Of a DNA stretch of 64,000 nucleotides, positions 20,231 through 46,186 are shown in pieces. A program made the position numbers and the translations under genes. The stretch is from a virus: positions 64,001 through 128,000 of the IMG/VR virus record IMGVR_UViG_3300045988_163643; one strand, written 5' to 3'. Under the pieces are notes generated by a model, which saw nothing but the letters and a program-made list of their open reading frames with translations, made no database searches and had not been told where the DNA came from. The number at the start of each line of letters is the position of its first letter. Positions within the stretch are counted from its first letter, which is position 1.

Positions 20231-20355
20231 ATATAAAACCCTCCTAAAATTTTAATTATTAACTATAATATAATCATTATATAAAGTCAATAAATATTTT
20301 AATTCTCATGAAAAATTTTAATTCTGAGCAACTGAAGAAGGAAAAACCCTTCTTC

Positions 20356-20595: not shown

Positions 20596-20673
20596 ATATA
20601 AAACCCTCCTAAATTTTTAATTATCATGAAAGTAATTAACTTTCAGCAACTGAAGAAGGAAAAACCTTTCTTC

Positions 20674-20853: not shown

Positions 20854-20918
20854 ATATAAAACCCTCCTAAAATTTTAATTTATTCAGTAATTTAAATTAC
20901 TGTAACTGAAGAAGAAAA

Positions 20919-21713: not shown

Positions 21714-21776
21714 ATAAAACCCTCCTAAAAATTTAATTTATTCAGTAATTTAAATTACTGTTACTGAAGAAGAAAA

Positions 21777-22133
21777 TTAAACTTCTTCTTCTTCCATTGT
21801 TTCAACTTCATTATATATTATACTTGTCATATATTCAAAAGCTAACCAACTTAAATTATTTGCGTTTACTTCAAAATCAGGACTTAAATTATCTTTAAGT
21901 TGATTGTAAATGTCGAATATTTCTTCTATATGTTTAATGAAGAAACATTTTGTTTCATTAAAGTATATTAATTCAGGCACTGTACCACTAATACAACCGT
22001 AATTCATAACATCTTCTAAAAATCCTTTTTCTACTTCATAATTTTCTATATTGTTTAAGATTATATCAATAACACTATCCTTTAATTCGCTTTCTCCATA
22101 TAAATTATTTAATAATTCACTATATTTTTTCAT
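21777..22133 (-). CDS. YGC(S/I)SG-motif acidic protein, paralog family member
   Basis: MNYGCISGTVPELIYFNETKCFFIKHIEEIF...NNLSWLAFEYM. Confidence 0.55.
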   Translation of the reverse strand: MKKYSELLNNLYGESELKDSVIDIILNNIENYEVEKGFLEDVMNYGCISGTVPELIYFNETKCFFIKHIEEIFDIYNQLKDNLSPDFEVNANNLSWLAFEYMTSIIYNEVETMEEEEV

Positions 22134-22249
22134 AATAAAAACCCTCCTAAAAATTATAAATTTTATTCAGAGCAACTCAAATATCAATTTTGAATTACTG
22201 TTACTGAAAAAGTATAGGACTTATAAAATCCCTTGTTTTTTCTATATTC

Positions 22250-22582
22250 TTATTCTTCAATTTTAAAATTCTTTATCTCAAGTCCATAATTGACTTGAGA
22301 CTTTCTATTTGTGTATTTTTTAACTTTTGCCCTAAATGTCAACTTTTGTCCTTCTTTAATGTTTTCCTTAAATATTTTCTTTGTAACACTACTTATCATG
22401 TCACAAAGACAATGACAACATATAAAATCATTGTTTTGATATATATTGTTTATCAATGCAACTTTTCTACACCCTCTTTTTTCAATTCGGTTAAAAGTTC
22501 CTTTGAATTCGACAATACTATCATTTAGTTTTTCAAGTTCTTTTCTATATTCATATCTTCCGTTTTTAGAATTAATATACAT
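22250..22582 (-). CDS. hypothetical protein (first gene of the leftward arm)
   Basis: 110 aa, SD AAGGGGGA. Confidence 0.5.
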   Translation of the reverse strand: MYINSKNGRYEYRKELEKLNDSIVEFKGTFNRIEKRGCRKVALINNIYQNNDFICCHCLCDMISSVTKKIFKENIKEGQKLTFRAKVKKYTNRKSQVNYGLEIKNFKIEE

Positions 22583-22599
22583 TTAAAATCCCCCTTTTT

Positions 22600-23040
22600 T
22601 TAACAAACAAGGGATTTTATAATTCCTATACCTTTTCCTATAACTGAAAAGGAAAAAATCCTTTTCCGTTTTTTTTAGGAGGAGGGAACATATTTAATTA
22701 TATAATAGGATTTTTATCATTGACCTCCTATGCCCTTGTAAATAGTCAATGACTGTTAAGTACTAAAACCTAACTTTTGATTATTACCTTATAACCCTCT
22801 GAGCACTTTTCAAAAGTTCCGACTTAAAAAGTATGAGTTCGTAAGTACTTATTAGAATTAATCTAACAGTTTACCTATATAACCTTTGATAATAGGGTTT
22901 TTATCAAAAGCACCTTTTAAGTTTTCCCTTTTGCCAGTTACCTAAAAGTTGTAAGATAATGCTTAATTCTATCAGGTGATATATTAAGCTTCTATTATAT
23001 ACCCTAAGCGTATAGCTTAAGGATTTTTTATTTCTTTTAT
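22600..23040 (-). other. ~0.4-kb untranslated leader / candidate structured RNA downstream of the triple promoter
   Basis: No ORF on either strand. Visibly higher GC than its surroundings. Several local hairpins (CCTTAAGC..GCTTAGGG, CTTTGATAATAGGGTTTTTATCAAAG, GGAGG..CCTCC). Confidence 0.3.
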
Positions 23041-23047
23041 TACCTTA

Positions 23048-23076
23048 ATTGTATCAGGTCTTTTATTTAATGTCAA
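23048..23076 (-). promoter_or_regulatory. early promoter P1, TTGACA-17-TACAAT
   Basis: Exact -35; part of a ~100-bp module repeated three times. Confidence 0.6.
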
Positions 23077-23150
23077 GTACTTTTTAAAAATCTTTTAAAA
23101 CTTTTTAAGTAGCTCCTAAGTTGTTTTCCTAAGTTGTTATTTATACTTAT

Positions 23151-23179
23151 ATATTATCATGTCTTTTATCTAATGTCAA
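23151..23179 (-). promoter_or_regulatory. early promoter P2, TTGACA-17-TAATAT
   Basis: Same module, including the AAACTTTTAAAACTTTTTAAGT...CCTAAGTTGTT repeat. Confidence 0.55.
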
Positions 23180-23249
23180 CTATTTTTTTTAAAAAACTTT
23201 TAAAACTTTTTAAGTGCTTTCCTAAGTTGTTATTTATTTTATTAACTTA

Positions 23250-23278
23250 ATTGTATTTAACCTCTTATCTAATGTCAA
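23250..23278 (-). promoter_or_regulatory. early promoter P3, TTGACA-17-TACAAT
   Basis: Third copy of the module. Confidence 0.6.
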
Positions 23279-23299
23279 CTATTTTTTTTATGTTTTTTT

Positions 23300-23420
23300 A
23301 TGTTTTTTGTATACATTAAAATGAATATTGTATTTTTTATATTGTATACATTATTTTGTATATTGTATTTTGAATAATGAATTTTGTATATTGTTTAATG
23401 TATACAGTATACCTATACTC
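23300..23420. repeat. TGTATA(C/T)-type short-motif array, block 1
   Basis: TGTATACA, TGTATATTGTAT and ATGTATACAGTATAC motifs, closely spaced. Confidence 0.7.
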
Positions 23421-23596
23421 TTTTATATTGATTTTCAAAATTCATATTTCTATTTTATTTTTTTCTAATATTGCCGTGTGACGTGATATAAGGCAATTTA
23501 AGGATTTTCAGAGCAGTTACTGTATAATTTATTCAATTGATTAATATATCCTCTTATATTGCCTTATATGGATACATGAAAACTTTTAAAAAATTA

Positions 23597-23624
23597 TTGA
23601 CATTAAATAAAGTTATGCTATCAT
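23597..23624 (+). promoter_or_regulatory. candidate promoter TTGACA-16-TATCAT
   Basis: Exact -35, imperfect -10. About 45 nt upstream of the small ORF. Confidence 0.4.
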
Positions 23625-23667
23625 TATATTAAATATTAATAAAATTAAATAAAGGTGGTTGATTGAA

Positions 23668-23865
23668 TTGAAGAAATATAGTATAGAAATAAAAGGCAAT
23701 ATATGGACAAGAGAATTAATTATAAATATATGCAGGGAAAAATCAATTAAATATAATGTAACAGAGTTATTAAGTGGATTAAAATATTGTATGCAATTAA
23801 ATGATTTAGGCTTTTGGGACTATCATTATTTCAATAGACTTAAAAAAATAGAAGAGAAAAAATAG
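23668..23865 (+). CDS. 65-aa hypothetical protein (TTG start)
   Basis: GGTGG SD 9 nt upstream of TTG 23668. Followed directly by a terminator. Confidence 0.4.
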   Translation: MKKYSIEIKGNIWTRELIINICREKSIKYNVTELLSGLKYCMQLNDLGFWDYHYFNRLKKIEEKK

Positions 23866-23891
23866 TAGAGACTGCTCTGCTATTTTTTTTA
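23865..23891 (+). terminator. rho-independent terminator
   Basis: AGTAGAG-ACTG-CTCTGCT stem followed by a T8 run. Confidence 0.6.
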
Positions 23892-24090
23892 TTGTATATA
23901 TGAATAACTGTTCATATGTTTATATGTTTAATTGTATGCAATATACTATATAATGCATCATGTATACAATATAATATATCATGTATTGTTTATTATGTAT
24001 AGTGTATAATGTATGCAATATTATGCATATTGTATCTTGTATGCAATATATAATATACTGTATGTAATATTATGTATATTGTATTATATT
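23890..24090. repeat. TGTAT(A/G)CAATAT array, block 2
   Basis: TGTATACAATATAAT at 23961. TGTATGCAATAT at 23933, 24010 and 24040. Confidence 0.75.
23897..23916. promoter_or_regulatory. palindrome ATATGAA-TAACTG-TTCATAT (SOS-box-like)
   Basis: 7-bp perfect arms. Related copies at 24528-24549, 24602-24622, 24662-24681 and 24929-24948. Confidence 0.5.
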
Positions 24091-24424
24091 AGTTAACTTG
24101 TAAACTATTATCATATTGATAATAAATAATACTTGACAAATAAACAGTTGTTCTGTAATCGAACGTAGCATATTTTATAATGTTTGTCAACAGTTATTTT
24201 TAGCTAAAAAGTTTAGTATAAGTAAACAATGCAAGTGTGAAACCATTGAAAATACTATATTATCATATTGATAAATTTACAAATACTAAGAAAAAATCAT
24301 GACCCATTTAAATCGATTCTAAGAGGGCGAACAAAATCCCTCTTTATAGTTAATCCTTTATATGAAGTCACTCTATACAGAGCTTTAAAATCGACGGTAA
24401 AAGGTCGGTATATATTTTTAAAAA

Positions 24425-24900
24425 GGTGACTATACATTTTATTGTATGTAATATATTGTATACAATTTATTATCATAATGATAATATATGAATAGATATT
24501 CAGGTATTCATATATAGAATTGTATAACATATGAATAACTGTTCATATGTTTAATTATTCAATCGTATTAGTTGATTTGTGAACTACTATCAATATGATA
24601 ACATATGAGTGATTGTTCATATAATATGTATAATGTATACAATATAATGTACTATGTATACGTATGAGTAACTGTTCATATATTCATATATATACTGTAT
24701 AGTGTATAATGTTTATTGTATACAATATAATATACTATGTATGATATATTATGTATGTTGTACTATGTATACAATATAATGTATAGTGTACTATGTACTA
24801 TGTATGGTGCATGATATGTAGTGTACTATGTATGGTGTATACAATATAATGTACTATGTATGATATACTATGTATGTTGTACTATGTATACAATATAGTT
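24425..24900. repeat. TGTATACAATATA array with ~115-bp tandem duplication, block 3
   Basis: TGTATACAATATA at 24634, 24717, 24766, 24836 and 24886. Long repeat GTACTATGTATGATATA(T/C)TATGTATGTTGTACTATGTATACAATATA occurs twice. Confidence 0.8.
24528..24549. promoter_or_regulatory. palindrome CATATGAA-TAACTG-TTCATATG
   Basis: 8-bp perfect arms. Confidence 0.5.
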
Positions 24901-24969
24901 GATAAGTGAACTATTATCAATATGATAACATATGAGTTACTGTTCATACGTTCATATGATAGTATGATA

Positions 24970-24981
24970 GAACAACTGTTC
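24970..24981. promoter_or_regulatory. perfect GAAC-N4-GTTC (Cheo/LexA-box-like)
   Basis: Reads GAACAACTGTTC. A reverse-orientation GAACAACTGTTT lies at ~24145-24156. Confidence 0.4.
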
Positions 24982-25173
24982 CTATGATGTTCTATGTTAG
25001 TAGAACATATGGTACAATAATCGAACTGCATAGAATTGATTGTAAGGCGTTTGCGTGATGTTCTTCTTATGTTACATCGTTGATAGTGTTCCTTCTCTTA
25101 TATTGCCTTGTATTGCCTCATAAGGTTACATTGAAAAAATTAGTGTATTAGAGAAAAAATTTTCATAGGATTG

Positions 25174-25202
25174 TTGACACGGAAAAGGGTAACTGCTATA
25201 AT
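25174..25202 (+). promoter_or_regulatory. consensus sigmaA promoter TTGACA-17-TATAAT
   Basis: Both hexamers perfect, 17-nt spacer. Confidence 0.7.
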
Positions 25203-25239
25203 TATGTTAATAAAAGATAAATAAAAGGGAGTTGATAGT

Positions 25240-25401
25240 ATGAAGAAGTTATTATTTGTTTTGGTGATTTTAGGAGTTATGGTGATTTTTAAGGACTGCT
25301 TATTAATAGGTTTAATGGATATTGTTGATTTTGTGGGTAACTTGTTTAACTTGAATACCGTTGTATTAATTGACTTCTTAAATAATTTATATTATTTATA
25401 A
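25240..25401 (+). CDS. 53-aa hydrophobic peptide
   Basis: MKKLLFVLVILGVMVIFKDCLLIGLMDIVDFVGNLFNLNTVVLIDFLNNLYYL. SD AAGGGAG. Perfect promoter and strong terminator. Below the track cutoff. Confidence 0.5.
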   Translation: MKKLLFVLVILGVMVIFKDCLLIGLMDIVDFVGNLFNLNTVVLIDFLNNLYYL

Positions 25402-25408
25402 GAGGAAT

Positions 25409-25441
25409 AAGTGGGATATATTTTATCCCACTTATTTTTTT
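25409..25441 (+). terminator. rho-independent terminator
   Basis: AAGTGGGA...TCCCACTT stem followed by a T-run. Confidence 0.7.
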
Positions 25442-25464
25442 ATGAAATATGCTCAGGTGATTTT

Positions 25465-25615
25465 ATGTATATTGTATGGTGTGTGGTGAATAGTGTATAC
25501 AGTATTTTTTATTATGTATAATGTATTGTTTATTGTATTGTATATTGTATTATGTATTGTATTATGTTTATTGTATAATGTATTGTATAATGTATAATGT
25601 ATATTATGTATATAT
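25465..25615. repeat. TGTAT-type array, block 4
   Basis: Runs of ATTGTAT, ATGTATAATG and TTGTATAATG. Confidence 0.7.
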
Positions 25616-25685
25616 GGTGATATAAAAGAATTTTATATATTTTTATAAAATATTATATTTTAAAAAGCCAGTGCTCTGTATAAAA

Positions 25686-25770
25686 TTTTAGGGAATTTTG
25701 TGGGGAATTTTAGGGAATTTTAGGGAATTTTAAGGATTTTATAGGGGGACTCTGAAAATTTTGTGGGATA
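25686..25770. repeat. helically phased GGGAATTTT(A/G) repeats
   Basis: Six to seven units at 10-12 bp spacing (TAGGGAATTTT, GTGGGGAATTTT, ...). Confidence 0.75.
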
Positions 25771-26160
25771 TATAATAGGGGGTGGGTCGGGAAAAATCCC
25801 ACCAAGGATTTTATATGTACAGGATTTTAAAAAACAGTTCTTAGAGAACTATTTACAAATTCGACACGAAGGGGGTAGTTTATGTATAATTCGACAAAAT
25901 TCTACACAAATATGAGTCTAGTCCCTTTATCTACACACTATTAAATTTCATCAAAATATTATTAAATTTCACTAATATTTCATCAATATTAAATTTACAA
26001 GATTAATCATATATAAAAATAATACTCTAAAACGCACTATAAAAATACATCACATTGTATACACAACATTGTATACACGATTGTACATTACCACACCACC
26101 ATCCATACACCACCTATTCCCCTATAACAAGCAATGAAATAAAAAGGAGGGGGGTACTTT

Positions 26161-26271
26161 ATGATAATATCAATTATCAAATCAATAATATCACTTCCCC
26201 TTATATACACTATCCCAATAAAATCCAATAAAAATAACTTAAAAATAACTATAAAAAACGTACTATTTTAA
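26161..26271 (+). CDS. candidate 36-aa peptide
   Basis: Strong AGGAGGGGGG SD ~10 nt upstream of the ATG. No promoter identified. Confidence 0.25.
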   Translation: MIISIIKSIISLPLIYTIPIKSNKNNLKITIKNVLF

Positions 26272-26409
26272 ATCAATTTCAGTATATTTTTAATCAAAAA
26301 CATACCATTTTCGACCAATTTTGTTACATTTTTGTACCATTTTAACCTAAAATAATCATAAAATATACGATATACCATATAAAAAGTAATGTATCAAAAT
26401 CATATAAAG

Positions 26410-26454
26410 TTATCCACAATTTCAACAAAGTTATCCACAGAATAATGTGGATTA
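26410..26454. promoter_or_regulatory. DnaA-box cluster
   Basis: Two perfect TTATCCACA boxes (26410-26418, 26431-26439) and one inverted 8/9 box, TGTGGATTA (26446-26454). Confidence 0.6.
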
Positions 26455-26538
26455 AAAATAACGATAAATCACGAAAATATTAATATGTCTATTTTTATAA
26501 TCCCTCAAATCTCATTTTTTAAAGGTAAATAAAAAAAA

Positions 26539-26592
26539 TGTACGGTTAACCGAATAAGAAAAAATCCTACAAAAAATACATGGTTAACCGTA
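26539..26592. repeat. 12-bp inverted repeat GTACGGTTAACC / GGTTAACCGTAC
   Basis: Perfect arms, 30-bp spacer. Each arm contains the palindrome GGTTAACC. Confidence 0.8.
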
Positions 26593-26667
26593 CTCAAGAA
26601 ATTAAAACAAATAAAATACATGATTAATGATATATAAAAACGATATAACATTATTGATGCTTAAAAA

Positions 26668-26700
26668 GAGTAAAAAAATAACCTACTTATAATAGTAGGC
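26668..26700 (-). terminator. terminator downstream of the fibre operon
   Basis: CCTACT...AGTAGG stem with a T-run on the minus strand. Similar to the hairpin at 36962. Confidence 0.55.
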
Positions 26701-26749
26701 TATCTTAATTTATCTTTTTTCTTACGCAATTGATTCATATTGTGTAAAT

Positions 26750-29700
26750 TTATTCACTTGTTGTAAAATCACCTGTTCCTAAATTATTATAATAAATCTT
26801 ATTTACAGTATCATACATACAAATAACATTAGCTTTAGTCTTTACAGGTATTAAGTCTAATATCTGTTGCCCATTTCTAGTTATTGTACAAGCATATAAT
26901 TTCATTGCACATTTTGTACTATTTTCACAACTTCCATTACTTGAATGTTGTCCGAATAAATATAAAGATAGTGTATTGTTGTCATTAAGTAATTGACAGT
27001 TATAAGTTTGACCATTGAATGATATTACTCTATTATTTAATGAATACTCATCAATATCATTAGAAATAGTTTCATCATAAGTGTTTGTGCTTACCATATC
27101 AATTCTATATTTATTATTAATAACTACTAATTGGCATCCCTGGTTCTCAAGACCATTACCATAAGCATCACCAAAAGGTATTGACGTTTTTATAAAGTTT
27201 AAAGGTTTAAATTTCACATACAAGCTATCTGTGTCAAAATTCAAAGTAACTCCAGTATCTATATATTGATTTCCATCACTTTGAATATAATTTAATTGAG
27301 TAAAATCATCTGATGTAATAGTACTTTTACAAGACACATTTATTACTATATCTCCGGTAACATTATTTATATTAATATTTCCTTGTGAATAAACTGTACT
27401 TGTAATATCAGTTCCACCCATAGTTACTGTTACTGTGTCATAAGTGCATCCACTGACAGGTGTGATTGTTGCACTATAAGACCCCCCTATTTTACAATAA
27501 GTACTATTGTTACTTGTTGTACATTTATTTAAAGTATTAACTACTTTTGCAAAAGTACCGTTTTTACTTGTTTCATATAAATACATTTTATTTAATTCTT
27601 CACTAGTTAAAACCCTATTATATATTTCATGTGAATAATAAATAAAGTTTACCCCTTCTCCTATTTTACCAATTATAAAATCAAGAGTGTTATCTGTAGT
27701 TAATGAATATCTATCATTTGTTCCTTCGTATTTTAATTCGCCATTCACATACACTTTACCACTATTCCCTTGTCTAGTCATTGCAATACTCATAAATCTA
27801 TCATATTTCATATCGCTTAAAGGATTATTACCCTCGTTTTCTCCATTTATGAACACAGGAGAAGTGACGCCGGTTTGCATAGCTTTCAATGACCATCCTG
27901 ATTCCGAAGCAGATTGATTAGCTCTTTTACCACATATAATGTGAGTAGCATTACTAAAACCGTGTACATTTATAATTACTGTAAAATCATTAGTTCCAAA
28001 ATTAAAATTATCACCAAAATTAATAGTTGCACTTGAATTTGTTAAATCTAAACCTCCCTTAGTCAATGTAGTTCCTATATAAGAACCTGTTCCAACAATT
28101 GAAGAATTTACTTTATCAACAATTTTATTTGTACTGAAATCATAATCTTCAACATCACAATGTCCTATTAGCCCTTGCGATACAAAACTATTAGATATTC
28201 CACTAACAGTAATATTACAAGTTGCACTTTGACTTCCACAAGTTGCAGTAATAGTACATTGTCCATTTGATGTAGGTGTCACAACTCCATTTTCAACAGT
28301 ACATATACCAGTAGGATTTGCTGACCAAATAACTTCGTCTGTAGTATCACTAGGAGTTAATGTAGCAGTTATCGTTTGTGGTGTTGTATCAGTAAATGTT
28401 AAAGTATTATTATTTAATACAATATTAGTACAAGGCTTATCTTCTTTAACTCCACTTACAGTAACATTACAAGTAGCAGTTTTAGTTCCACAAGTAGCAG
28501 TAATAGTACAATTTCCATCTTTAATCGGTGTTACAACACCTTTATTGACAGTTACTATACCAGTAGGAGTTACACTCCATGTAACTGTATCTGTTGTATT
28601 AGTAGGAGCTAATGTAGCGGTTAATGTTTGACTGTCTGTTGTTGTAAATGATAATGTTGTATTATTTAAAGTTATATTAGTACAAGCTACAGTTTCTTTA
28701 TATTTATTGTCTAAATAAGATATTCTTTGTTTAATCCACGTATACATACTATCAATATCATCTGTTTTATTAATTCTATTTGACCATTTACTTCTTTCTT
28801 TGGTTATATTTTCAGTCCCCCAAATTGATTGAAATGCTCTAAATTGATTTATAATCCTACTTACATTTATTGTCCCATTATTTCTTAATTCCCAATATCT
28901 TTGGCTTATTTCATTAAAATAATTACTATATAATTTATTCCATACTGGATTAGTCTTAGTATATTGACAATTAAGTAAATCTGTTGTAGGTTTGCTTGGA
29001 TGATAAGATATACCAGCATTTTGGAATAACCCAAATATTATGTCTAAATCATACCAGCACATATACCATTTTGACCCATCCCATGTAGCAATAGTCCAAT
29101 TGTTAATCATACTATCAGTTGCACAAGCTAAATCTGCAAATACCCAATAATTAATCGCATTTTGTAAAATTAGATGTTCCTCAAAATGTGCTTTAAAATC
29201 ACTATCACTTGAATTATTTATAAAATTTAGCAAATCAGTTAATTTACCTTGAATTTCTGATGTTTCAGTTCCATCACTTCTATATTCAAAATTAGATAAT
29301 ACTAGACTTCCTAAACCACTTCTATATACTATATTTGTTAATGGATTTTTTTTACTGTTCATTCCAAATAAATCATCATCCTGTTTTATATTAAGAGTAT
29401 AACACCCATTAAATTCTCCGTTTAAATATAAAATAACAGGCTTAGATTTTACTGTAATCGGAGCGTCTACTGGAAATGTAGTATTATCAAAATCCCACAC
29501 CATTTGTGCTCCTACAGAATTTCTTACCATTGAATAATCAGCATAATTACATTTTAAATGGTATGTGCTTGTAGCATAATCAAATATTTTTATTTTTTTC
29601 TTATTTCCTTCAACGTCTTTAAGTTTTAAACTTAAATTTTTATTAGGATATTGTAAACTTCCGCTACCTTGCCATGTGGTTGTTGATTTTCCTTGAAATA

Positions 29701-29989
29701 CTGTAGAACCATATTCATCAACATACAAAATATCTAATTGTACTGGATTAGTTTTGCTTATACCTGTAGTATCACCATCTAAATAAATTATTCCACATGG
29801 ATATGATTGAATTTTAGGTACTATACCATTCTCAACTTTCTTCGCAATATCTTTATATTGCGTATTAAGTTTGTCAACATCACTTTTAATATTATTTATG
29901 TCAGTTTTAATATTATCTAATCCTTCAATATTATTATTTGAATTCTCATTATTATTAATAAAACCAAATTTATTATCTTTATCAAACAT
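26750..29989 (-). CDS. tail fibre / receptor-binding protein with CotH-like, 2x Big_2 and LamG-like domains
   Basis: CotH-like KNLSLKLKD...YHLKCNYADYSMVRNSVGAQM...ILYLNGEFNGCY...WYDLDIIFG. Two TxTATLxPxxTTDxVxWS...TITATCG Ig-like repeats. LamG-like FTVIINVHG...VYVNGELKYEG...IYNRVLTSEELNKMY. N-terminal MFDKDNKFGFI shared with 30011..31654. Confidence 0.7.
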   Translation of the reverse strand: MFDKDNKFGFINNNENSNNNIEGLDNIKTDINNIKSDVDKLNTQYKDIAKKVENGIVPKIQSYPCGIIYLDGDTTGISKTNPVQLDILYVDEYGSTVFQGKSTTTWQGSGSLQYPNKNLSLKLKDVEGNKKKIKIFDYATSTYHLKCNYADYSMVRNSVGAQMVWDFDNTTFPVDAPITVKSKPVILYLNGEFNGCYTLNIKQDDDLFGMNSKKNPLTNIVYRSGLGSLVLSNFEYRSDGTETSEIQGKLTDLLNFINNSSDSDFKAHFEEHLILQNAINYWVFADLACATDSMINNWTIATWDGSKWYMCWYDLDIIFGLFQNAGISYHPSKPTTDLLNCQYTKTNPVWNKLYSNYFNEISQRYWELRNNGTINVSRIINQFRAFQSIWGTENITKERSKWSNRINKTDDIDSMYTWIKQRISYLDNKYKETVACTNITLNNTTLSFTTTDSQTLTATLAPTNTTDTVTWSVTPTGIVTVNKGVVTPIKDGNCTITATCGTKTATCNVTVSGVKEDKPCTNIVLNNNTLTFTDTTPQTITATLTPSDTTDEVIWSANPTGICTVENGVVTPTSNGQCTITATCGSQSATCNITVSGISNSFVSQGLIGHCDVEDYDFSTNKIVDKVNSSIVGTGSYIGTTLTKGGLDLTNSSATINFGDNFNFGTNDFTVIINVHGFSNATHIICGKRANQSASESGWSLKAMQTGVTSPVFINGENEGNNPLSDMKYDRFMSIAMTRQGNSGKVYVNGELKYEGTNDRYSLTTDNTLDFIIGKIGEGVNFIYYSHEIYNRVLTSEELNKMYLYETSKNGTFAKVVNTLNKCTTSNNSTYCKIGGSYSATITPVSGCTYDTVTVTMGGTDITSTVYSQGNININNVTGDIVINVSCKSTITSDDFTQLNYIQSDGNQYIDTGVTLNFDTDSLYVKFKPLNFIKTSIPFGDAYGNGLENQGCQLVVINNKYRIDMVSTNTYDETISNDIDEYSLNNRVISFNGQTYNCQLLNDNNTLSLYLFGQHSSNGSCENSTKCAMKLYACTITRNGQQILDLIPVKTKANVICMYDTVNKIYYNNLGTGDFTTSE

Positions 29990-30010
29990 TCTATTTCTCC
30001 TTTCTGTTTA

Positions 30011-31654
30011 TTATTCTTTAGGAACAAAAGTTTTACTAACTCCATTGATAGTAACTACTAGTTCTCCACTTTCATTAAAGGTAAACTGAGGTAAATTAGA
30101 AACTTTATCATCTACGTATTTTTTATGGGCTGGATTATAATCATTGGTTACATCGTATTCATATGTATTATCTGGACTAATTGAACTTAATTTTGTTTGC
30201 ATTAATTTCCATTTACCATTTTCTTTAGTTATACTTAAATATTTGCAATAATTGTTTATACAATTCATATTAATTGCTATAAATGTATCACTTTTTAATT
30301 GAATACATATTGAAGTACTAAGCATACTACTCCAACCAATTGTATTTGACCCATCGTCAACAGTGAACCAAGTTCCATCATCATTAGGTGCTTTTAAACT
30401 AACTTTAAAGAATCCACTAACTATTGATGAATTTACTCTATAATTAGTTCCCTTTTCTAAAGTTGTTATATCCACATATCCTTTAGGTAGATTTGGGTCA
30501 TCATATAATATAGTAGGTGTTTTAAAATAATAATCTCTACTATCATCTACATATTTTTTAGTAGTTAAATCTTTATCTTCAGTAGGAGTACCTTCTTGAG
30601 ATAATTTACCTGCATACCAAGCATTACCTTGCCAGTCTAAAGTATGAGCATTAGCTCTTTTCTTATCACTACTACCATTACCTACTATATGTGCATATTT
30701 ACCTTCAGTATCTTCTATATTATATTTACCTTGTACATGCTGGTTGATAGAAGAAGCTTTAGTATATTTACCTTCTGCATGAGAATTTTCACCTGAAGCT
30801 GTTGTACCATTACCTTCTGCATGTGAATACAAACCTGAAGATATTGCATTAAAACCTTCTGCATGTGAACAATAACTTGAAGCTACTGTATACCAACCTT
30901 CAGCGTGTGAAGAAGTACCTGAAGCTTTTGTTTTATGACCTTCTGCATGTGAATTATCAGCTGATGCAGTTGTATATTTACCTTCTGCATGTGAACCATA
31001 ATCACCTGAAGCTGTTGTATTCAGACCTTCAGCATGTGAACAGTTACCTGAAGCTATTGTAAAACATCCCATAGCAGTAGAATATTCACCTATTTTACTA
31101 TTAGGGTCACGTCGTATACTTAAACTATTATAAATATCAACATCTTTTCCAAGTAATAATGTATTAAATTTATTAATAGATATTTCAAATAATTTAATTC
31201 CTCCAGTAAATACAGGTGGTTTATTATCATTAATTCTATTTAGTACCATTAATGCTACATTCTCATTATACTCTTCTGTTTTATCATAAAAAGTCTGTAC
31301 ATCCCCTCCACCTATATTATTAACAGTATCATTTATGCCAAAAAATTCCATAATTACTCTAGTTTTATTTTGCTTAGTTAATTCTTTAGTATATACTGAA
31401 TCTAATCTGTAACGTTTATTATTAATTTCAATAAAAAACAAAGTATCGTCTTTAATTGTAAAATTAGGAATTTCAATATACATAGATGTATCATCACTAG
31501 CTTGGCACTCAGCCCATGCTTTATTTAATTGGTCTACTGTTATATTTAATAGTGCAGTTTCTGATTTAATATATGGTAAATCGGTATTCTTTATATTATT
31601 TGATTCATTATTGTTGTTAATAATAAATCCAAATTTATTATCTTTATCAAACAT
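30011..31654 (-). CDS. tail fibre protein with 7 SHAEG repeats
   Basis: SHAEGxxTxASGxx period of 13-14 aa. The block QHVQGKYNIEDT..NAHTLDWQGNAWYAGKLSQEGTPTEDKDLTTKKYVDD is shared with 38199..39476. Confidence 0.7.
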   Translation of the reverse strand: MFDKDNKFGFIINNNNESNNIKNTDLPYIKSETALLNITVDQLNKAWAECQASDDTSMYIEIPNFTIKDDTLFFIEINNKRYRLDSVYTKELTKQNKTRVIMEFFGINDTVNNIGGGDVQTFYDKTEEYNENVALMVLNRINDNKPPVFTGGIKLFEISINKFNTLLLGKDVDIYNSLSIRRDPNSKIGEYSTAMGCFTIASGNCSHAEGLNTTASGDYGSHAEGKYTTASADNSHAEGHKTKASGTSSHAEGWYTVASSYCSHAEGFNAISSGLYSHAEGNGTTASGENSHAEGKYTKASSINQHVQGKYNIEDTEGKYAHIVGNGSSDKKRANAHTLDWQGNAWYAGKLSQEGTPTEDKDLTTKKYVDDSRDYYFKTPTILYDDPNLPKGYVDITTLEKGTNYRVNSSIVSGFFKVSLKAPNDDGTWFTVDDGSNTIGWSSMLSTSICIQLKSDTFIAINMNCINNYCKYLSITKENGKWKLMQTKLSSISPDNTYEYDVTNDYNPAHKKYVDDKVSNLPQFTFNESGELVVTINGVSKTFVPKE

Positions 31655-31673
31655 TTTATTTTCTCCTTTCTAT

Positions 31674-31723
31674 ATAAAAAAAATAAAGGGAAATATATAG
31701 AATTATATCTATTATTTCCCTTT
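31674..31723 (-). terminator. hairpin terminator/attenuator
   Basis: AAAGGGAAATA...TATTTCCCTTT stem plus a T8 run on the minus strand, only ~20 nt upstream of the fibre gene start. Confidence 0.55.
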
Positions 31724-31731
31724 ATATAAAA

Positions 31732-31995
31732 TTAATTTAACCCTATATATCTAACTTTTGAACCACTTTCAACAACAACTATTGATTCTATTACTACATT
31801 TCCTAAACTTAAAGTTTCATTAGCACGTATTAATATTTTATCTCCATCGTTAAATACAACGTTTATTTCTCCTTCGCCCATATTTTGGACTTGAACATTA
31901 GTTATTGATTCTATAGTTCCTTCGTTACCATCAGATAATACTTCTTGATATTCTCTTTCAGTTGTAACTACTTTACCTCTAACTTTAACTGCCAT
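31732..31995 (-). CDS. small beta-rich protein (paralog of 49672..49941)
   Basis: Start MAVKVRGK at 31995 (GAGGAGGTG SD). NMGEGEINVVFNDGD aligns with NLGEADVEIQFNEEGD. Confidence 0.5.
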   Translation of the reverse strand: MAVKVRGKVVTTEREYQEVLSDGNEGTIESITNVQVQNMGEGEINVVFNDGDKILIRANETLSLGNVVIESIVVVESGSKVRYIGLN

Positions 31996-32039
31996 TATAA
32001 TCACCTCCTCATTTACATTATACATATATAATATAATAC

Positions 32040-32068
32040 TTGACTTTTAATATTTTTATTAGTATAAT
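32040..32068 (+). promoter_or_regulatory. sigmaA-type promoter TTGACT-17-TATAAT
   Basis: TTGACTTTTAATATTTTTATTAGTATAAT. Confidence 0.65.
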
Positions 32069-32089
32069 AAATATAAAAGGAGAAAATTA

Positions 32090-32257
32090 ATGAAAGAAAA
32101 GAAAGTAAGTTGTGGATTTTGCAAATATTTCAGAGTAAAAGATTTAGGCAATGGATTTTGTGAAATCCTATGTGATAAAGATGAAGTAAATTTACCTTAT
32201 AAACCTTGTGAAGTTTATGAAGAAAAAATAAAAAACAATGAACAGAATGGAGAATAA
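32090..32257 (+). CDS. 55-aa Cys-rich protein
   Basis: MKEKKVSCGFCKYFRV...GFCEILCD...KPCEVYEE, SD AAAGGAG. Below the track cutoff. Confidence 0.45.
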   Translation: MKEKKVSCGFCKYFRVKDLGNGFCEILCDKDEVNLPYKPCEVYEEKIKNNEQNGE

Positions 32258-32259
32258 AC

Positions 32260-32502
32260 ATGGATAAAAAATATGACGGAATAGATATGGAAATGTTAAA
32301 TCTACCTTGTGGTAGTGTTACTATGGAATTTGAAAAAGATGGAAAAGAATATAAAGCTGAGATAATAAAAATACCTATTAAATATTTTTTAATAACAGAT
32401 ATGTTAGATGGATTTATGAAAAGAATTATAGAAGATTTATATGAACAAGGTTGGGATTTTTCTAAAGAAATAGATTTTACAGAAATAGTTAATGAAGATT
32501 AG
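32260..32502 (+). CDS. hypothetical protein
   Basis: 80 aa, tightly coupled to the upstream ORF. Confidence 0.5.
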   Translation: MDKKYDGIDMEMLNLPCGSVTMEFEKDGKEYKAEIIKIPIKYFLITDMLDGFMKRIIEDLYEQGWDFSKEIDFTEIVNED

Positions 32503-32526
32503 AGAGGATACATCCTCTCTTTTTAT
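32501..32526. terminator. bidirectional hairpin
   Basis: AGAGAGGA-TACA-TCCTCTCT between convergent genes. Confidence 0.55.
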
Positions 32527-33473
32527 TTATAATCTCTAAATACCATAATGATACCATTATTTCTTAAGACTACATAACCTGTTTTTACAGTAAAAGAATA
32601 TTCATATCTACTTCTAAATAATCTCATGTCTTTTACATCAGTTCTAAGACCTAAGTTATTCATCTTTAAAAGATAATCTTCATGTTTATGACAAGGAATA
32701 CCATATAATGTATATGCCATTTGAATGAAATCTAAACTATCTTTATCTTTAGGTATTATTTTATTCTTCATATCATTTAATCTATCTAATTTATCAACTA
32801 TAAATCTTATTTCATCATAGGAATAATTAAGTATACTCTTAAGAAATACATCTTTATCTCTGGGCAAACTAAAACTTAATGTTCTCCAACGAACATCTTT
32901 TTTATATCTTACCTTACATTTATTTAATAAAACTTCCCAAGGTTTCATAGTTTTTTCAAATTTTTCAATAGGTTCATCTCTCATATCTAAAGTACATACA
33001 TTAGATTTATCTATATCTCCATACATTATACTTCTTAACATTAGTTCCATTTTATTTTCTGTTAATTGGCTATTGTTATTAGAAATATAAGTAAAAGTAT
33101 TTATAAATAAAAAATGAGAAAATATTGATTTTTTAAGTGGAATATCTTTAGTCATAATATCCATATATCTATTGTCATGTCTAAATATCACATCTCCATA
33201 TTCATTCATACAAGTATCTCTATATTTGCCAAAGAATATTCCTTCATCATTTATTAATATATCTAATTTTCTTTGAAAGATAACTCTATTTAATCCTTTA
33301 GATTTTCTTTTAATATAATTAAGTGGTAATAATAATTCAACATGTTTATCTTTAGGAAAATATGTTAATATCTTTTCTCCTTTTTTATAATCTTTTATAT
33401 ATTTCCATTCTTGCCCGTTAAAATATTCCATATTTTCTCCAAAGAAAGTATTTCTTGTTTCTAATCTTGGCAT
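32523..33473 (-). CDS. hypothetical protein, possibly Hint/intein-like with LAGLIDADG-like segments
   Basis: N-terminal FNGQEWKYIKDYKKGEKILTY, C-terminal YSFTVKTGYVVLRNNGIIM. Central MLRSIMYGDID and FLKSILNYSYDEI. Weak motif-level call only. Confidence 0.45.
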   Translation of the reverse strand: MPRLETRNTFFGENMEYFNGQEWKYIKDYKKGEKILTYFPKDKHVELLLPLNYIKRKSKGLNRVIFQRKLDILINDEGIFFGKYRDTCMNEYGDVIFRHDNRYMDIMTKDIPLKKSIFSHFLFINTFTYISNNNSQLTENKMELMLRSIMYGDIDKSNVCTLDMRDEPIEKFEKTMKPWEVLLNKCKVRYKKDVRWRTLSFSLPRDKDVFLKSILNYSYDEIRFIVDKLDRLNDMKNKIIPKDKDSLDFIQMAYTLYGIPCHKHEDYLLKMNNLGLRTDVKDMRLFRSRYEYSFTVKTGYVVLRNNGIIMVFRDYK

Positions 33474-33551
33474 TAATATCAATCCTTTCTATTTTATTTA
33501 CATATATTTAATAAGACAATAAAATTTTATACGATTTTTCAAGTAATTTAT

Positions 33552-33580
33552 TTTACTTTTAATAAAATTCTAAGTATAAT
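33552..33580 (+). promoter_or_regulatory. phage-family promoter TTTACT-17-TATAAT upstream of tnpB
   Basis: TTTACTTTTAATAAAATTCTAAGTATAAT, the same module as other early promoters. Confidence 0.6.
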
Positions 33581-33618
33581 ATATATAAAATAAATAAAAT
33601 AAAGGGGGTGATGAATGA

Positions 33619-34725
33619 ATGTTAAAAGCATATAAATTTAGATTATATCCAAATAAAGAACAAGAAGAACTAATTCAAAAAACTTTTGGTTGTTGTAGAT
33701 TTGTCTATAATCAAACATTATCTTATAGAAAAGAAATATATGAAACACAAAAAAAATCTATGAATAAAACTTCTTGTAACGATTATTGCAATCAAGTTCT
33801 TAAAAAGGAATATAAATGGTTAAAAGAAGTTGATAAATTTGCTCTTACAAATGCAATTTATAATATGAATTCTGCATATCAAAGATTTTTCAAAGGATAT
33901 TCTAATTATCCAAAATTCAAAAGTAAACGAAATAATAAAAAATCATATTCTACTAATTTTACTAATAACAATATTGAAATATCCTTTGAGAGCAATAAAA
34001 TCAAACTTCCAAAACTTAAATGGGTTAAAACTAAAATTCATCGTGAGTTTGTAGGTAAAATTAAATCAGCAACTGTTTCACAAGTTTCTAGTGGTAAATA
34101 TTATATATCTATATTAGTAGAGCAAGAAATAAAAGAATTACCTAAAAATGAATTTACAGTTGGTATAGATTTAGGATTGACTGATTTTGCTATAACTAGC
34201 GATGGAGTTAAGTATAGTAATCCTAGATATTTACGAAAATCATTAAATAAATTAGCTAAAGAACAAAGAAAATTATCTAGGAAGAAAAAAGGTAGTAAAA
34301 ATAGAAATAAACAAAGAATAAAAGTTGCTAGGGTGCATGAGAAAATAACTAATCAAAGAAAAGATTTCTTACATAAATTATCTTCTGAACTTATAAACGA
34401 AAACCAAGTAATATGTTTAGAAGATTTACAAGTAAAAGAGATACAACAAAATAAATATTTATCTCAATCTGTATCAGATGTTGGTTGGTATGAATTTAGA
34501 AGACAATTAGAGTATAAAGCTAAATGGTATGGTAGAACAATATCTTTTGTTGATAAATGGTATCCTTCTAGTCAAATATGTAGTAATTGTGGAAATAATA
34601 CTGGTAAAAAAACATTAGATATAAGAGAATTTGATTGTCCATATTGCGGAAGACATCATGATAGAGATATAAATGCAAGTATTAATATATTAAATGAAGG
34701 ATTGAGAATATTAAATAATAAATAA
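33619..34725 (+). CDS. tnpB: TnpB (IS200/IS605-family OrfB, RuvC-like RNA-guided nuclease)
   Basis: MLKAYKFRLYPNKEQEELI N-terminus. RuvC D (GIDLGLTDFA), E (ICLEDLQV), zinc finger CSNCG...CPYCG, and D (HDRDINASINI). Confidence 0.85.
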   Translation: MLKAYKFRLYPNKEQEELIQKTFGCCRFVYNQTLSYRKEIYETQKKSMNKTSCNDYCNQVLKKEYKWLKEVDKFALTNAIYNMNSAYQRFFKGYSNYPKFKSKRNNKKSYSTNFTNNNIEISFESNKIKLPKLKWVKTKIHREFVGKIKSATVSQVSSGKYYISILVEQEIKELPKNEFTVGIDLGLTDFAITSDGVKYSNPRYLRKSLNKLAKEQRKLSRKKKGSKNRNKQRIKVARVHEKITNQRKDFLHKLSSELINENQVICLEDLQVKEIQQNKYLSQSVSDVGWYEFRRQLEYKAKWYGRTISFVDKWYPSSQICSNCGNNTGKKTLDIREFDCPYCGRHHDRDINASINILNEGLRILNNK

Positions 34726-34830
34726 AACAATTAGAGGTTGGAACAACCTTATAAGCCTAGTAAATTAGTTGCAATAGTAACCTTACCTAGGAAGCACATA
34801 GCTTTAGCCTATGTGTAGTTCACGACCAAC
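34600..34830 (+). ncRNA. candidate omega/reRNA scaffold overlapping the tnpB 3' end and right end
   Basis: GC-richer tail with hairpins AGGTTG-GAA-CAACCT and CACATAG-CTTTAGC-CTATGTG just after the stop. Boundaries not determined. Confidence 0.35.
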
Positions 34831-35023
34831 TTAAAGAAATAAGAAGAAAACAAAGGTAATAGTTAAAAATAAAGTATTTGCTAAAGCATTTGCTGATGGA
34901 ATAGAGGATGCAGGGTTATATCCATTCAAGGTAAATTTATTGTAATTAGATTAGATAAAATGATTGATAAAATTAATAACCTGCATACGAAAAATGGGGG
35001 TAAAAAGTAAGGAGGATAACACA

Positions 35024-35485
35024 ATGAGTTTTTTCAAAGAAAAAAAAGATAGAAAAAATGAAGAAAAAAGAATGAAAGAATATATTAGGGAATATATAAA
35101 AGTATGTGATACAATATGTTATGAAGATATTTATATGAAAGAAATTATTATACAATATGATGAATTAATACCTGATATGTTTATTAGTATACCTGTTGAT
35201 AGTAAAACAATAGATAAAGTTTTATATGATATATACAATAGGAGATTACATAAAGTTTTATTAAAGTTCCCAAATGGACTTGAAGAAAAATGCAAGGTTG
35301 ATGGAAAAATAGAGAAACGTATTGTTGATGAATTAAATGAAATAACATGGGAAGAACCTTTAGTGAAATTAAAACATTATAAAATAGATATATCATTATT
35401 TGATTTAATAGCTCAAGATGTTAAAGTATATATATTAGATTATGATTTGGAGGGAATAGATATAGATGAAGACACAAGAAGATAG
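35024..35485 (+). CDS. hypothetical protein
   Basis: Start at ATG 35024, 8 nt after AAGGAGGA. Confidence 0.5.
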   Translation: MSFFKEKKDRKNEEKRMKEYIREYIKVCDTICYEDIYMKEIIIQYDELIPDMFISIPVDSKTIDKVLYDIYNRRLHKVLLKFPNGLEEKCKVDGKIEKRIVDELNEITWEEPLVKLKHYKIDISLFDLIAQDVKVYILDYDLEGIDIDEDTRR

Positions 35486-35975
35486 AAGTATATGTTCAAC
35501 TTGTAAACATTTAAAAGGAATATTTACTTATACCGAAGAAGGTATTAAACCTAGTTATATATGTATGGCTAATGATGACTGTTGGATAACAATAACAGAA
35601 TTATGTACTAATAAAGATTTTGCTGAATGTGAAGATTATGAAAGTTTTGATAGATTACTAACAGAAGATGTGTCAATATGTGCAATTAAATATGATTATA
35701 ATGGTGAGATTAACTCAACTGATTGTACTAATTGTGCATATTTTTTAACTACACCAATTCAATTTCCTTGTGGACATTGTATGATAAAACCTGACTTAAA
35801 TATTGGTAGCTTTAGATTTTGTGAACACTTTACAACAGAAAGACCAAAAATGCAATTACGAATTGAAGCAAATGATATGGATTTACAAAAACTTTATATA
35901 CAAAGAAATCAATTAATATTAAAGAAAATAACTGAAAATAAAAGAAAGGATAATGAAGATGATGGAAGTAACTAA
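35466..35975 (+). CDS. Cys-rich protein (two CxxC...C modules)
   Basis: CSTCKHLKG...ICMANDDC...CEDYE and CTNCAYF...CGHCMI...FCEHF, related to 32090..32257. Confidence 0.5.
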   Translation: MKTQEDRSICSTCKHLKGIFTYTEEGIKPSYICMANDDCWITITELCTNKDFAECEDYESFDRLLTEDVSICAIKYDYNGEINSTDCTNCAYFLTTPIQFPCGHCMIKPDLNIGSFRFCEHFTTERPKMQLRIEANDMDLQKLYIQRNQLILKKITENKRKDNEDDGSN

Positions 35976-46132: not shown

Positions 46133-46157
46133 ATATATATAAAATTTTTTAAATATG

Positions 46158-46186
46158 TTTACTTTTAACAAAAGTATTAGTATAAT
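46158..46186 (+). promoter_or_regulatory. promoter TTTACT-17-TATAAT
   Basis: Second tandem copy. Confidence 0.6.

What the first reader, a model, noticed from the sequence alone, without database searches (positions are those of the whole stretch)
33552..34830. Solo tnpB with intact RuvC triad, omega-RNA-like tail and a phage-type promoter
The TnpB has the D (GIDLG), E (CLEDL) and D (HDRDINAS) residues and the zinc finger, so it is probably catalytically active. No tnpA is adjacent. Its upstream region is not an IS left end but a copy of the phage promoter module (TTTACTTTTAATAA..AAGTATAAT). The GC-richer 100 nt after the stop has the hairpins expected of an omega/reRNA scaffold. An RNA-guided nuclease wired into the phage early programme could act in homing or retention, in inter-phage competition, or against host DNA.
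Basis: partly seen in the sequence, partly recalled or inferred. Interest (0 to 1): 0.62.

Follow-up and report, generated by a model that had tools for sequence, protein, structure and literature searches.

The report
Immobilised chimeric TnpB nuclease in phage
A 198-kb human-gut phage carries an intact RNA-guided DNA nuclease (TnpB) with its guide RNA but without the parts needed to transpose; the guide matches the uninterrupted version of the same gene in nine related phages, so it probably behaves like a homing endonuclease, and the half of the protein that reads the target motif was swapped in from another TnpB lineage.

Summary
Window 33619-34725 (+) encodes a 368-aa TnpB that aligns over its full length to ISDra2 TnpB (E 4e-99). 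The D184/E268/D350 triad and the zinc finger are intact. The 98 nt after the stop (to 34823) are a genuine omegaRNA scaffold. It shows strong covariation, and a model built only from distant relatives scores it 50.7 bits.

The complete 197.8-kb genome has no tnpA, and this copy has no left end. Sister phages show that everything upstream of the ribosome-binding site is resident phage DNA, including the promoter, which recurs 36 times in the genome.

Nine related phage contigs have the site unoccupied. There, TTGAA followed by a 19/20 or 18/20 match to the guide lies 177 bp into a DUF4041-T5orf172 gene. That gene is destroyed in this phage.

New here: the gene is a recombinant. Residues 18-156 (REC and WED domains, with all TAM-reading residues) come from a lineage whose elements insert at TTGAA. 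The rest of the protein and the omegaRNA come from a phage-restricted lineage that inserts at TTTAA.

The most likely function is TnpA-independent homing or exclusion against co-infecting sister phages. No activity or RNA has been shown. This scan has reported similar immobilised phage TnpBs on other DNA. The lobe swap appears in none of the earlier notes retrieved.

The parts
33552..33580 (+). Resident phage promoter module (TTTACT, 17 nt, TATAAT) that now drives tnpB
   Evidence: Found 10 times in the window against 0 expected and 36 times in the genome, all co-oriented with local genes. The same sequence stands at the same locus in sister phages that lack this tnpB.
33601..33618 (+). Left junction inside the ribosome-binding site. 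Resident AAAGGGG is fused to the element's GTGAT...ATG. No left-end hairpin and no TAM remain.
   Evidence: Sister-phage homology runs to 33612-33616. Homology to the L010 tnpB cassette starts at 33605. The best match of the right-end hairpin to the 260 nt upstream is noise.
33619..34725 (+). tnpB ORF, 368 aa, with D184/E268/D350 and zinc finger C321/C324/C340/C343
   Evidence: dN/dS is 0.14 against the nearest relative in each segment.
33670..34085 (+). Lineage-B patch (aa 18-156): REC domain plus most of WED, with all TAM-reading positions (K50, N54, K73, F74, T77, T115, N116)
   Evidence: 78-92% nt identity to L012 against 55-75% to L010. Breakpoint from 419 informative sites. The segment tree places it in lineage B. 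Residue table; domain limits from PMC10097598.
34089..34823 (+). Lineage-A part: RuvC and TNB domains plus the omegaRNA/right end
   Evidence: 87-98% nt identity to L010 against 50-74% to L012. The segment tree places it inside lineage A at 100/98 support.
34716..34823 (+). omegaRNA scaffold as matched by the covariance model. Helix 1 is 34735-34749, helix 2 is 34755-34791, the terminal hairpin is 34794-34815, and the conserved terminus TAGTTCAC ends at 34823. The 5' limit inside the ORF is not defined.
   Evidence: A model built from distant members only scores 50.7 bits, E 2e-11, over the full model length. 14 of 19 pairs show compensatory change. 92.6% of cells are paired against 27-45% when the partners are slid.
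34824..34843 (+). Predicted guide (16-20 nt, GACCAACTTAAAGAAA...), the flank directly 3' of the right end
   Evidence: All family tails diverge right after ...TTCAC. The filled/empty junctions of L010 and L018 lie exactly there. It matches the sister-phage target TTGAA+AA[C/T]CAACTTAAAG....
34824..34874 (+). 51-bp remnant of the resident DUF4041-T5orf172 gene, the only part left in this phage
   Evidence: About 90% identical to codons about 60-76 of the intact 380-aa gene in sister phages.
34868..34980 (+). 3' remnant (last ~25 codons plus ~35 nt) of a second, unrelated TnpB-type element. It replaces about 910 bp of the resident gene.
   Evidence: 87% identical to the 3' end of the 405-aa TnpB-like gene at G000:C1:44911-46128(-).

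Best explanation
This is an immobilised derivative of an IS605-family (ISDra2-like) element. Only the RBS, tnpB and the right end that encodes the omegaRNA survive (33605-34823). An ancestor inserted 3' of a TTGAA motif, 177 bp into a phage DUF4041-T5orf172 gene. A later deletion removed the gene's 5' part, the TAM and the left end, and fused tnpB to the resident phage promoter at the RBS. By analogy with ISDra2, the promoter would give one transcript, and TnpB would process its 3' part into an omegaRNA whose last ~16 nt are the flank GACCAACTTAAAGAAA. The complex cannot cut its own genome, because the flank is preceded by the right end and not by a TAM. It should cut co-infecting sister phages, where TTGAA directly precedes the same sequence. 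Repair from the tnpB-bearing genome would copy the cassette in (homing); failure to repair would remove a competitor. The protein is a recombinant. Its TAM-reading REC/WED lobe comes from a TTGAA-type lineage. Its nuclease lobe and omegaRNA come from a TTTAA-type, phage-restricted lineage. So its TAM reader fits the TAM of its own site. Shown here: identity, anatomy, boundaries, RNA covariation, filled/empty polymorphism, the chimera and purifying selection. Inferred: transcription, RNA processing, cleavage, TAM preference and homing. The confidence given (0.55) is for the whole statement including function; the identity and anatomy alone I hold at about 0.95.
For: The protein is a full-length ISDra2 TnpB homolog with an intact triad. 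The omegaRNA is supported by covariation and by an independent model hit. The tail is 83-88% identical to relatives whose proteins are only 66-75% identical overall. The right-end boundary is exact in three filled/empty comparisons. Four IMG/VR sister phages and five metagenome contigs, one titled human gut metagenome, all carry the unoccupied site TTGAA+AA[C/T]CAACTTAAAGAAATAAGAAG. The TAM TTGAA/TTTAA is read from about 10 independent left-end flanks and resembles ISDra2's TTGAT (PMC8612924). The genome holds no other site within 2 mismatches of the 16-nt guide, and its own flank lacks a TAM. There is no TnpA in the genome. dN/dS is 0.14 in each segment against its nearest relative. Sister phages carry lineage-A copies at other sites that are empty here, also without intact left ends. 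The chimera and the matching TAM residues are shown. K73 corresponds to ISDra2 K76, which reads the G of the TAM (PMC10097598). It is K in TTGAA-type members and S in TTTAA-type members.
Against: Guide position 1 is G where all nine empty alleles have A, and position 3 differs in five of nine. Seed mismatches may weaken cutting. Only 1 of 10 sampled relatives is occupied, so there is no sign of a sweep. The WED domain (lineage B) must bind a lineage-A omegaRNA, and this compatibility is untested. The lineage-A TAM rests on three sites, and the fourth, the L018 site, reads TATTA. Pairwise dN/dS includes time before immobilisation. The flanking deletions mean a homing event would also have to carry over a rearranged locus.
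Confidence: 0.55

Rival explanations
1. It is a decaying relic. An IS605-type element landed in a dispensable phage gene and lost its left end and transposase. It is now an inert passenger that has not yet accumulated disabling mutations, and the promoter fusion is accidental.
For: The left end and tnpA are gone. The locus is heavily rearranged, with a second element's remnant next door. Decayed relatives exist: a scaffold relic at G000:C1:46253-46330 and an internally deleted copy in L147. The site is occupied in 1 of 10 relatives. The guide has a position-1 mismatch to every empty allele.
Against: The ORF is intact with all catalytic and zinc ligands. dN/dS is 0.14 against the nearest relative in both segments. 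The non-coding tail is better conserved than the coding sequence and keeps its base pairs through compensatory changes. Other left-end-less copies (L010, L011, L015, L018) also keep intact ORFs and scaffolds.
Confidence: 0.25
2. It is a domesticated weapon rather than a selfish homing element. The phage keeps the TnpB-omegaRNA to destroy competitors that carry the intact T5orf172 gene, or to cut host DNA. The benefit goes to the phage, and the cassette is not copied.
For: Same target evidence as the best explanation. It is wired to a strong resident promoter. The flanking deletions make clean gene conversion harder. Sister phages carry reciprocal TnpB/target pairs.
Against: A fixed single guide against one non-essential gene is a weak weapon. 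The guide is simply the insertion flank, as in any IS605 element. Cutting and homing are two outcomes of the same act and cannot be told apart from sequence.
Confidence: 0.12
3. The chimeric gene is an artefact of metagenome assembly that joined reads from two tnpB paralogs.
For: The genome is a metagenome-assembled IMG/VR record. Both lineages occur in the same metagenome, 3300045988.
Against: The lineages share only about 14 identical bases at the junction. Neither part is identical to any sequence found: the B part is 78-92% identical to L012 and the A part 87-98% to L010. The first ~50 nt of the ORF are again A-like, which fits an internal conversion tract. The reading frame is preserved.
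Confidence: 0.03

Closest known systems
ISDra2 TnpB with its reRNA/omegaRNA (Deinococcus radiodurans, IS200/IS605; PDB 8EXA, 8BF8, 8H1J; PMC8612924, PMC10097598)
   Same: Full-length homology (E 4e-99) and the same domain order. The D/E/D triad and zinc finger are conserved. The RNA scaffold is encoded by the 3' end of the gene plus the right end, and the guide is the flank. The 5-nt TAM TTGAA resembles TTGAT. The TAM readers K76, F77, T123 and N124 are conserved.
   Different: There is no TnpA and no left end, so it cannot transpose. It is driven by a phage promoter and sits in a virulent-looking 198-kb phage. The residues equivalent to Y52, S56 and Q80 differ (K, N, T), in line with a different base at TAM position -1. 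The REC/WED lobe and the nuclease lobe have different ancestries.
TnpB-driven transposon retention and homing (Meers et al., bioRxiv 10.1101/2023.03.14.532601; 'non-restorative homing' in review PMC13565253)
   Same: The guide targets the TAM-flanked empty site. Break repair from an occupied copy would reinstate or spread the element.
   Different: In the described system TnpA creates the empty site on a sister chromosome. Here the empty sites are alleles in other phage genomes and no TnpA is involved. The review lists spread into co-infecting phages as a theoretical case, and I found no experimental demonstration.
Free-standing phage homing endonucleases (T4 SegF, SegB, Mob; intronless homing)
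   Same: It is a nuclease gene wedged between conserved phage genes. Its presence is polymorphic among close relatives. It is predicted to cut the allele that lacks it during co-infection.
   Different: Recognition is by RNA guide plus TAM rather than by protein. Self is told from non-self by the insertion itself, which separates the TAM from the target.
TldR, nuclease-dead TnpB derivatives in prophages that act as RNA-guided repressors (bioRxiv 10.1101/2023.11.30.569447)
   Same: It is a phage-borne TnpB relative that has left the transposon life style and keeps a guide RNA.
   Different: TldR has lost the catalytic residues and targets host promoters. This protein keeps all three, and its guide is still the insertion flank.

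Membership tests
TnpB (IS200/IS605-type RNA-guided nuclease) | HTH_OrfB_IS605 + OrfB_IS605 (RuvC) + TNB/zinc-ribbon domain architecture | tested here: met
   All three Pfam models score well above their cut-offs. Full-length alignment to ISDra2 TnpB.
TnpB (IS200/IS605-type RNA-guided nuclease) | RuvC D-E-D catalytic triad and CxxC...CxxC zinc finger | tested here: met
   D184/E268/D350 align with D191/E278/D361. C321/C324/C340/C343 are present and conserved in 9 homologs.
TnpB (IS200/IS605-type RNA-guided nuclease) | Structured omegaRNA scaffold encoded at the 3' end of the gene and the right end, followed by a flank-derived guide | tested here: met
   Covariation is 0.589 against at most 0.135 in slid controls, and 14 of 19 pairs are compensatory. 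The independent model hit is 50.7 bits. The boundary is exact at 34823. Rfam has no matching family.
TnpB (IS200/IS605-type RNA-guided nuclease) | RNA-guided, TAM-dependent DNA cleavage | not testable with these tools
   Needs expression and a cleavage or interference assay.
Mobilisable IS200/IS605 element | Y1 (HUH) TnpA in the element or the genome | tested here: not met
   No PF01797 hit in the complete genome, although the control genomes ring. tblastn with family TnpAs finds nothing. There is also no serine recombinase.
Mobilisable IS200/IS605 element | Left-end subterminal hairpin resembling the right-end hairpin | tested here: not met
   Resident phage sequence runs up to the RBS, and nothing like the right-end hairpin lies in the 260 nt upstream. 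Relatives L012, L014, L016, L017, L038 and L048 do have one.
Mobilisable IS200/IS605 element | Insertion 3' of a short target motif without target duplication | tested here: inconclusive
   The right junction fits: empty alleles read TTGAA directly before the flank. The left junction was destroyed by a later deletion, so the original insertion cannot be fully rebuilt.
Homing endonuclease (functional class) | Recognition site present in the cognate allele that lacks the gene, and disrupted in the allele that carries it | tested here: met
   Nine of nine relatives carry TAM plus target. The phage's own flank is preceded by the right end and not by a TAM, and there is no other near match in its genome. 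Caveat: 1-2 mismatches at guide positions 1 and 3.
Homing endonuclease (functional class) | Biased inheritance in mixed infection | not testable with these tools
   Needs co-infection or a two-replicon assay.
TldR / nuclease-dead domesticated TnpB | Loss of RuvC catalytic residues | tested here: not met
   The triad is intact.
IStron (group I intron carrying TnpB) | Group I intron ribozyme flanking tnpB | tested here: not met
   No Rfam intron hit in 33000-35500 even at E up to 10.

The most novel reading that the evidence does not exclude
Recombination between TnpB lineages exchanges the whole TAM-reading REC/WED lobe as a module. In this phage, a TTGAA-type lobe was grafted onto a TTTAA-type nuclease lobe and omegaRNA that sit at a TTGAA site. 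This would retune the nuclease to the motif of its own insertion site. It would allow a transposase-less cassette to keep spreading between co-infecting phages by RNA-guided homing alone.
Probability: 0.3. Interest if true: 0.75.

Novelty: new variant of a known kind. Interest (0 to 1): 0.58.

Why it matters
Most tnpB genes in nature are solo, and how they persist without a transposase is unsettled. This locus gives a natural test bed. It offers one occupied and nine empty alleles with TAM and target in place. It offers reciprocal TnpB/target pairs between sister phages, and several copies without an intact left end whose ORFs and scaffolds are nonetheless preserved. The chimera adds a direct prediction for nuclease engineering: TAM specificity travels with residues ~18-156 and can be swapped onto another lineage's RuvC lobe and guide RNA. 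The three natural proteins (window, L010-type, L012-type) form a ready-made parent/chimera set for TAM assays.

Tried and rejected
- **Rfam:** a scan of 33000-35500 at E up to 10 gave only a chance miRNA hit.
- **Related records:** searching the records behind L010 and L018 for neighbour genes failed because those records are not held. I reached the sister phages through the search for related loci instead.
- **Age of the copies:** I first read the whole-gene dS (0.46-0.58 against backbone 0.17-0.23) as showing independent, older acquisitions. I rejected this once the gene proved mosaic. The lineage-A segment has dS 0.22 to L010, the same as the backbone.
- **Whole-protein tree:** it left the window unresolved on a long branch. 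This is explained by recombination.
- **More lineage-A copies:** a search with a scaffold motif found only one new copy, and it is internally deleted. The lineage-A TAM therefore still rests on three sites.
- **TAM from multicopy bacterial elements:** the attempt stopped at their intact tnpA genes, because the left ends lie further upstream.
- **Gene B dN/dS:** the calculation was out of frame and is disregarded.

Full report
**Setting.** The window is bases 64001-128000 of a complete 197,824-bp phage record with direct terminal repeats and 26% GC. One sister contig comes from a record titled human gut metagenome. The finding lies where leftward genes meet rightward genes. The leftward genes encode CotH/Ig-like/lectin, tail-fibre-like proteins. 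The rightward genes include a RecD2-like helicase.

**The gene.**
- ORF 33619-34725 (+) encodes 368 aa.
- It hits HTH_OrfB_IS605, OrfB_IS605 and Cas12f1-like_TNB strongly.
- Residues 3-362 align to the solved ISDra2 TnpB at E 4e-99.
- D184, E268 and D350 correspond to the catalytic D191, E278 and D361 of ISDra2 (PMC10097598).
- Both CxxC pairs are present, and all of these residues are conserved in nine homologs.
- It is the only copy of this family in the genome.

**The RNA.**
- The 98 nt after the stop codon have GC 0.37 against 0.24 for the ORF.
- Window 34640-34823 is 83-88% identical to the tails of relatives whose proteins are only 66-75% identical overall.
- Every family tail ends in a hairpin followed by GTAGTTCAC and then diverges, so the right end is at 34823.
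- On 24 sequences, RNAalifold predicts 19 pairs, and 14 of them show compensatory change.
- 92.6% of cells are paired, against 27-45% when the partners are slid. The covariation score is 0.589 against at most 0.135, and 0 of 500 shuffles reach it.
- A covariance model built only from 17 distant members matches 34716-34823 over its full length at 50.7 bits, E 2e-11.
- The genome holds one other hit, a degenerate relic outside the window.
- In ISDra2 the RNA is about 150 nt and its last ~16 nt come from the flank (PMC8612924). By analogy the guide here starts at 34824 (GACCAACTTAAAGAAA).

**What is missing.**
- No Y1 transposase and no serine recombinase occurs anywhere in the genome.
- Many bacterial relatives are full IS605 elements with tnpA directly upstream: 32 of 80 loci, against 4 of 34 viral loci.
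- Relatives L012, L014, L016, L017, L038 and L048 have a left-end hairpin like their right-end hairpin. The window has none.

**Sister phages define the insertion.** Four IMG/VR contigs are 91-94% identical to the window across this region.
- In two of them (L129, L130) the same promoter and RBS drive a 380-aa DUF4041-T5orf172 gene. The sequence TTGAA followed by AA[C/T]CAACTTAAAGAAATAAGAAG lies 177 bp into that gene.
- In the window, homology runs to 33612-33616 and resumes at 34824-34827. The segment from the RBS to the right end is therefore the insert.
- The first 177 bp of the resident gene, the TAM and any left end have been deleted. The junction lies inside the RBS.
- Only 51 bp of the resident gene survive (34824-34874). 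The remaining ~910 bp are replaced by a 110-bp 3' remnant of an unrelated TnpB-type element.
- Two other sisters (L128, L131) carry a third, different tnpB between the RBS and the ATG of the same gene. The locus is a hot spot.
- Searches for the target found it only in these four phages and five further metagenome contigs. All nine are unoccupied and all have TTGAA.

**TAM.** About ten independent left-end flanks in the family place TTGAA (six cases), TTTAA (two), TTAAA or CTGAA at a fixed distance upstream of the left-end hairpin. The close homolog ISDra2 uses TTGAT.

**Self and non-self.** In the phage's own genome the guide-matching flank follows the right end and not a TAM. No other site lies within 2 mismatches of the 16-nt guide. 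The empty alleles match the 20-nt guide at 19/20 or 18/20. The differences are at position 1 (G in the window, A in all others) and at position 3 (T in five of nine).

**Reciprocity.**
- Sister phage _152729 carries the closest tnpB (L010) at a site that is empty in the window. There, TTTAA precedes a 15/16 match to L010's guide at 46148-46168.
- Sister _156249 carries another copy (L018) at a site that is empty at G000:C1:~11,880.
- Neither copy has an intact left end. L010 has none, and L018 keeps half a hairpin.

**The chimera.**
- Sliding identity shows that ORF nt ~52-467 are 78-92% identical to lineage B (L012 and relatives, found in phages and Lachnospiraceae) and 55-75% to lineage A (L010, L018, L014, L015, L011 and L016, all phage contigs).
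- From nt 471 to the right end the pattern inverts: 87-98% to L010 and 50-74% to L012.
- Of 419 informative sites, the switch falls between nt 467 and 471. The first ~50 nt are again A-like, as expected for an internal conversion tract.
- Separate trees put aa 18-156 with lineage B (the A/B split has 100/98 support, and the window is sister to L012). They put aa 157-368 inside lineage A (100/98 support).
- In ISDra2 numbering, the patch covers roughly residues 20-164. That is the REC domain (13-116) and most of WED (117-176), which together bind the TAM duplex.
- At the seven TAM-reading positions (Y52, S56, K76, F77, Q80, T123, N124) the window and lineage B have K, N, K, F, T, T, N. Lineage A has N, Q, S, L, A, then Q/N/S, then K/Q.
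- K76 reads the G of TTGAT. It is kept where the inferred TAM is TTGAA and lost where it is TTTAA (the L010 site, L014 and L016).
- The window's site has TTGAA, so the grafted lobe fits it. This correlation rests on few, related sequences and is an inference.

**Selection.** The window has dN/dS 0.14 against L012 in segment 1 and 0.14 against L010 in segment 2. The lineage-A segment has dS 0.22 to L010, about the same as backbone genes between the two phages (0.17-0.23).

**Promoter.** The TTTACT-17-TATAAT module at 33552-33580 occurs 36 times in the genome. All copies are co-oriented with local genes: on the minus strand up to 79.3 kb and on the plus strand from 97.55 kb. It occurs 10 times in the window against 0 expected. 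It is the resident promoter of the destroyed gene and was not brought in by the element. Its near-consensus sigma-70 form is compatible with early expression, but its timing is unknown.

**Interpretation.** What the object is can be stated with high confidence. It is an ISDra2-like TnpB-omegaRNA cassette, immobilised by loss of the left end and tnpA, and driven by a captured phage promoter. Function is inferred. The most likely function is RNA-guided cutting of the intact T5orf172 allele in co-infecting relatives, leading to homing or exclusion. The main rival is an inert relic. A 2026 review lists transposon homing into co-infecting phages as a theoretical category (PMC13565253), and I found no experimental demonstration. 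Earlier notes of this scan describe similar immobilised phage TnpBs with empty sister sites on other DNA. The REC/WED lobe swap appears in none of those retrieved notes.

Noticed in passing
G000:C1:44911-46128 (-), outside the window (L002:1527-2744); remnant at window 34868-34980: A second, divergent TnpB-like gene (405 aa; Pfam OrfB_IS605 + TNB). It lacks the CxxC zinc finger and has IGNNKNWKQ where the canonical glutamate motif would be. A full copy sits at yet another locus in sister phages L129 and L131, between the homologs of window ORFs 31732-32025 and 32090-32257. This family is therefore also polymorphic among these phages.
   Followed up: partly
G000:C1:46253-46330 (-), L002:2869-2946: A degenerate copy of the family's omegaRNA scaffold, internally deleted (26.5 bits, ends GGTAGTTTAC). 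It has no tnpB and lies about 125 nt upstream of the second TnpB-like gene. It is a relic of an earlier element of the same family.
   Followed up: partly
L128:3056-4405 and L131 (sister phages _156249, _159628): A third TnpB (376 aa, MIKSFT..., full Pfam architecture) is inserted between the RBS and the ATG of the same DUF4041-T5orf172 gene. A GGAGATA repeat stands at both junctions. Its upstream region resembles that of the second TnpB-like gene.
   Followed up: partly
window 46148-46169: This is the empty site for the sister phage's tnpB (L010): TTTAA followed by a 15/16 match to L010's guide, between two tandem promoter modules. In L010 the flank carries a ~25-nt deletion that begins at target position 16, inside the 15-21 bp zone where ISDra2 TnpB cuts (PMC8612924). 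This is a single observation and may be coincidence.
   Followed up: partly
L016:4760-4990: A lineage-A copy that still has a left-end hairpin, followed by an N-terminal relic of tnpA (MNKYDSINHSKFLLRYHIVFVCKYRKK...) and then a phage promoter module before tnpB. It looks like an intermediate stage between a full IS605 element and the promoter-fused cassettes.
   Followed up: no
L147 (IMGVR_UViG_3300000360_000211): An internally deleted lineage-A copy. The coding sequence stops just after the CLEDLQVK motif and runs straight into an intact-looking omegaRNA scaffold and right end.
   Followed up: no
window 15300-33550 (genome 79.3-97.5 kb): The 36-copy promoter module is absent from this stretch, which holds the large CotH/Ig-like/lectin and tail-fibre-like genes. 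Its copies switch strand on either side of the stretch. This suggests the module marks one temporal class of genes.
   Followed up: no
window 34824-35024 against L129:4412-5554: The DUF4041-T5orf172 gene (a GIY-YIG-like domain often linked to mobile DNA) is intact in nine relatives and reduced to 51 bp here. It is therefore dispensable for this phage.
   Followed up: partly
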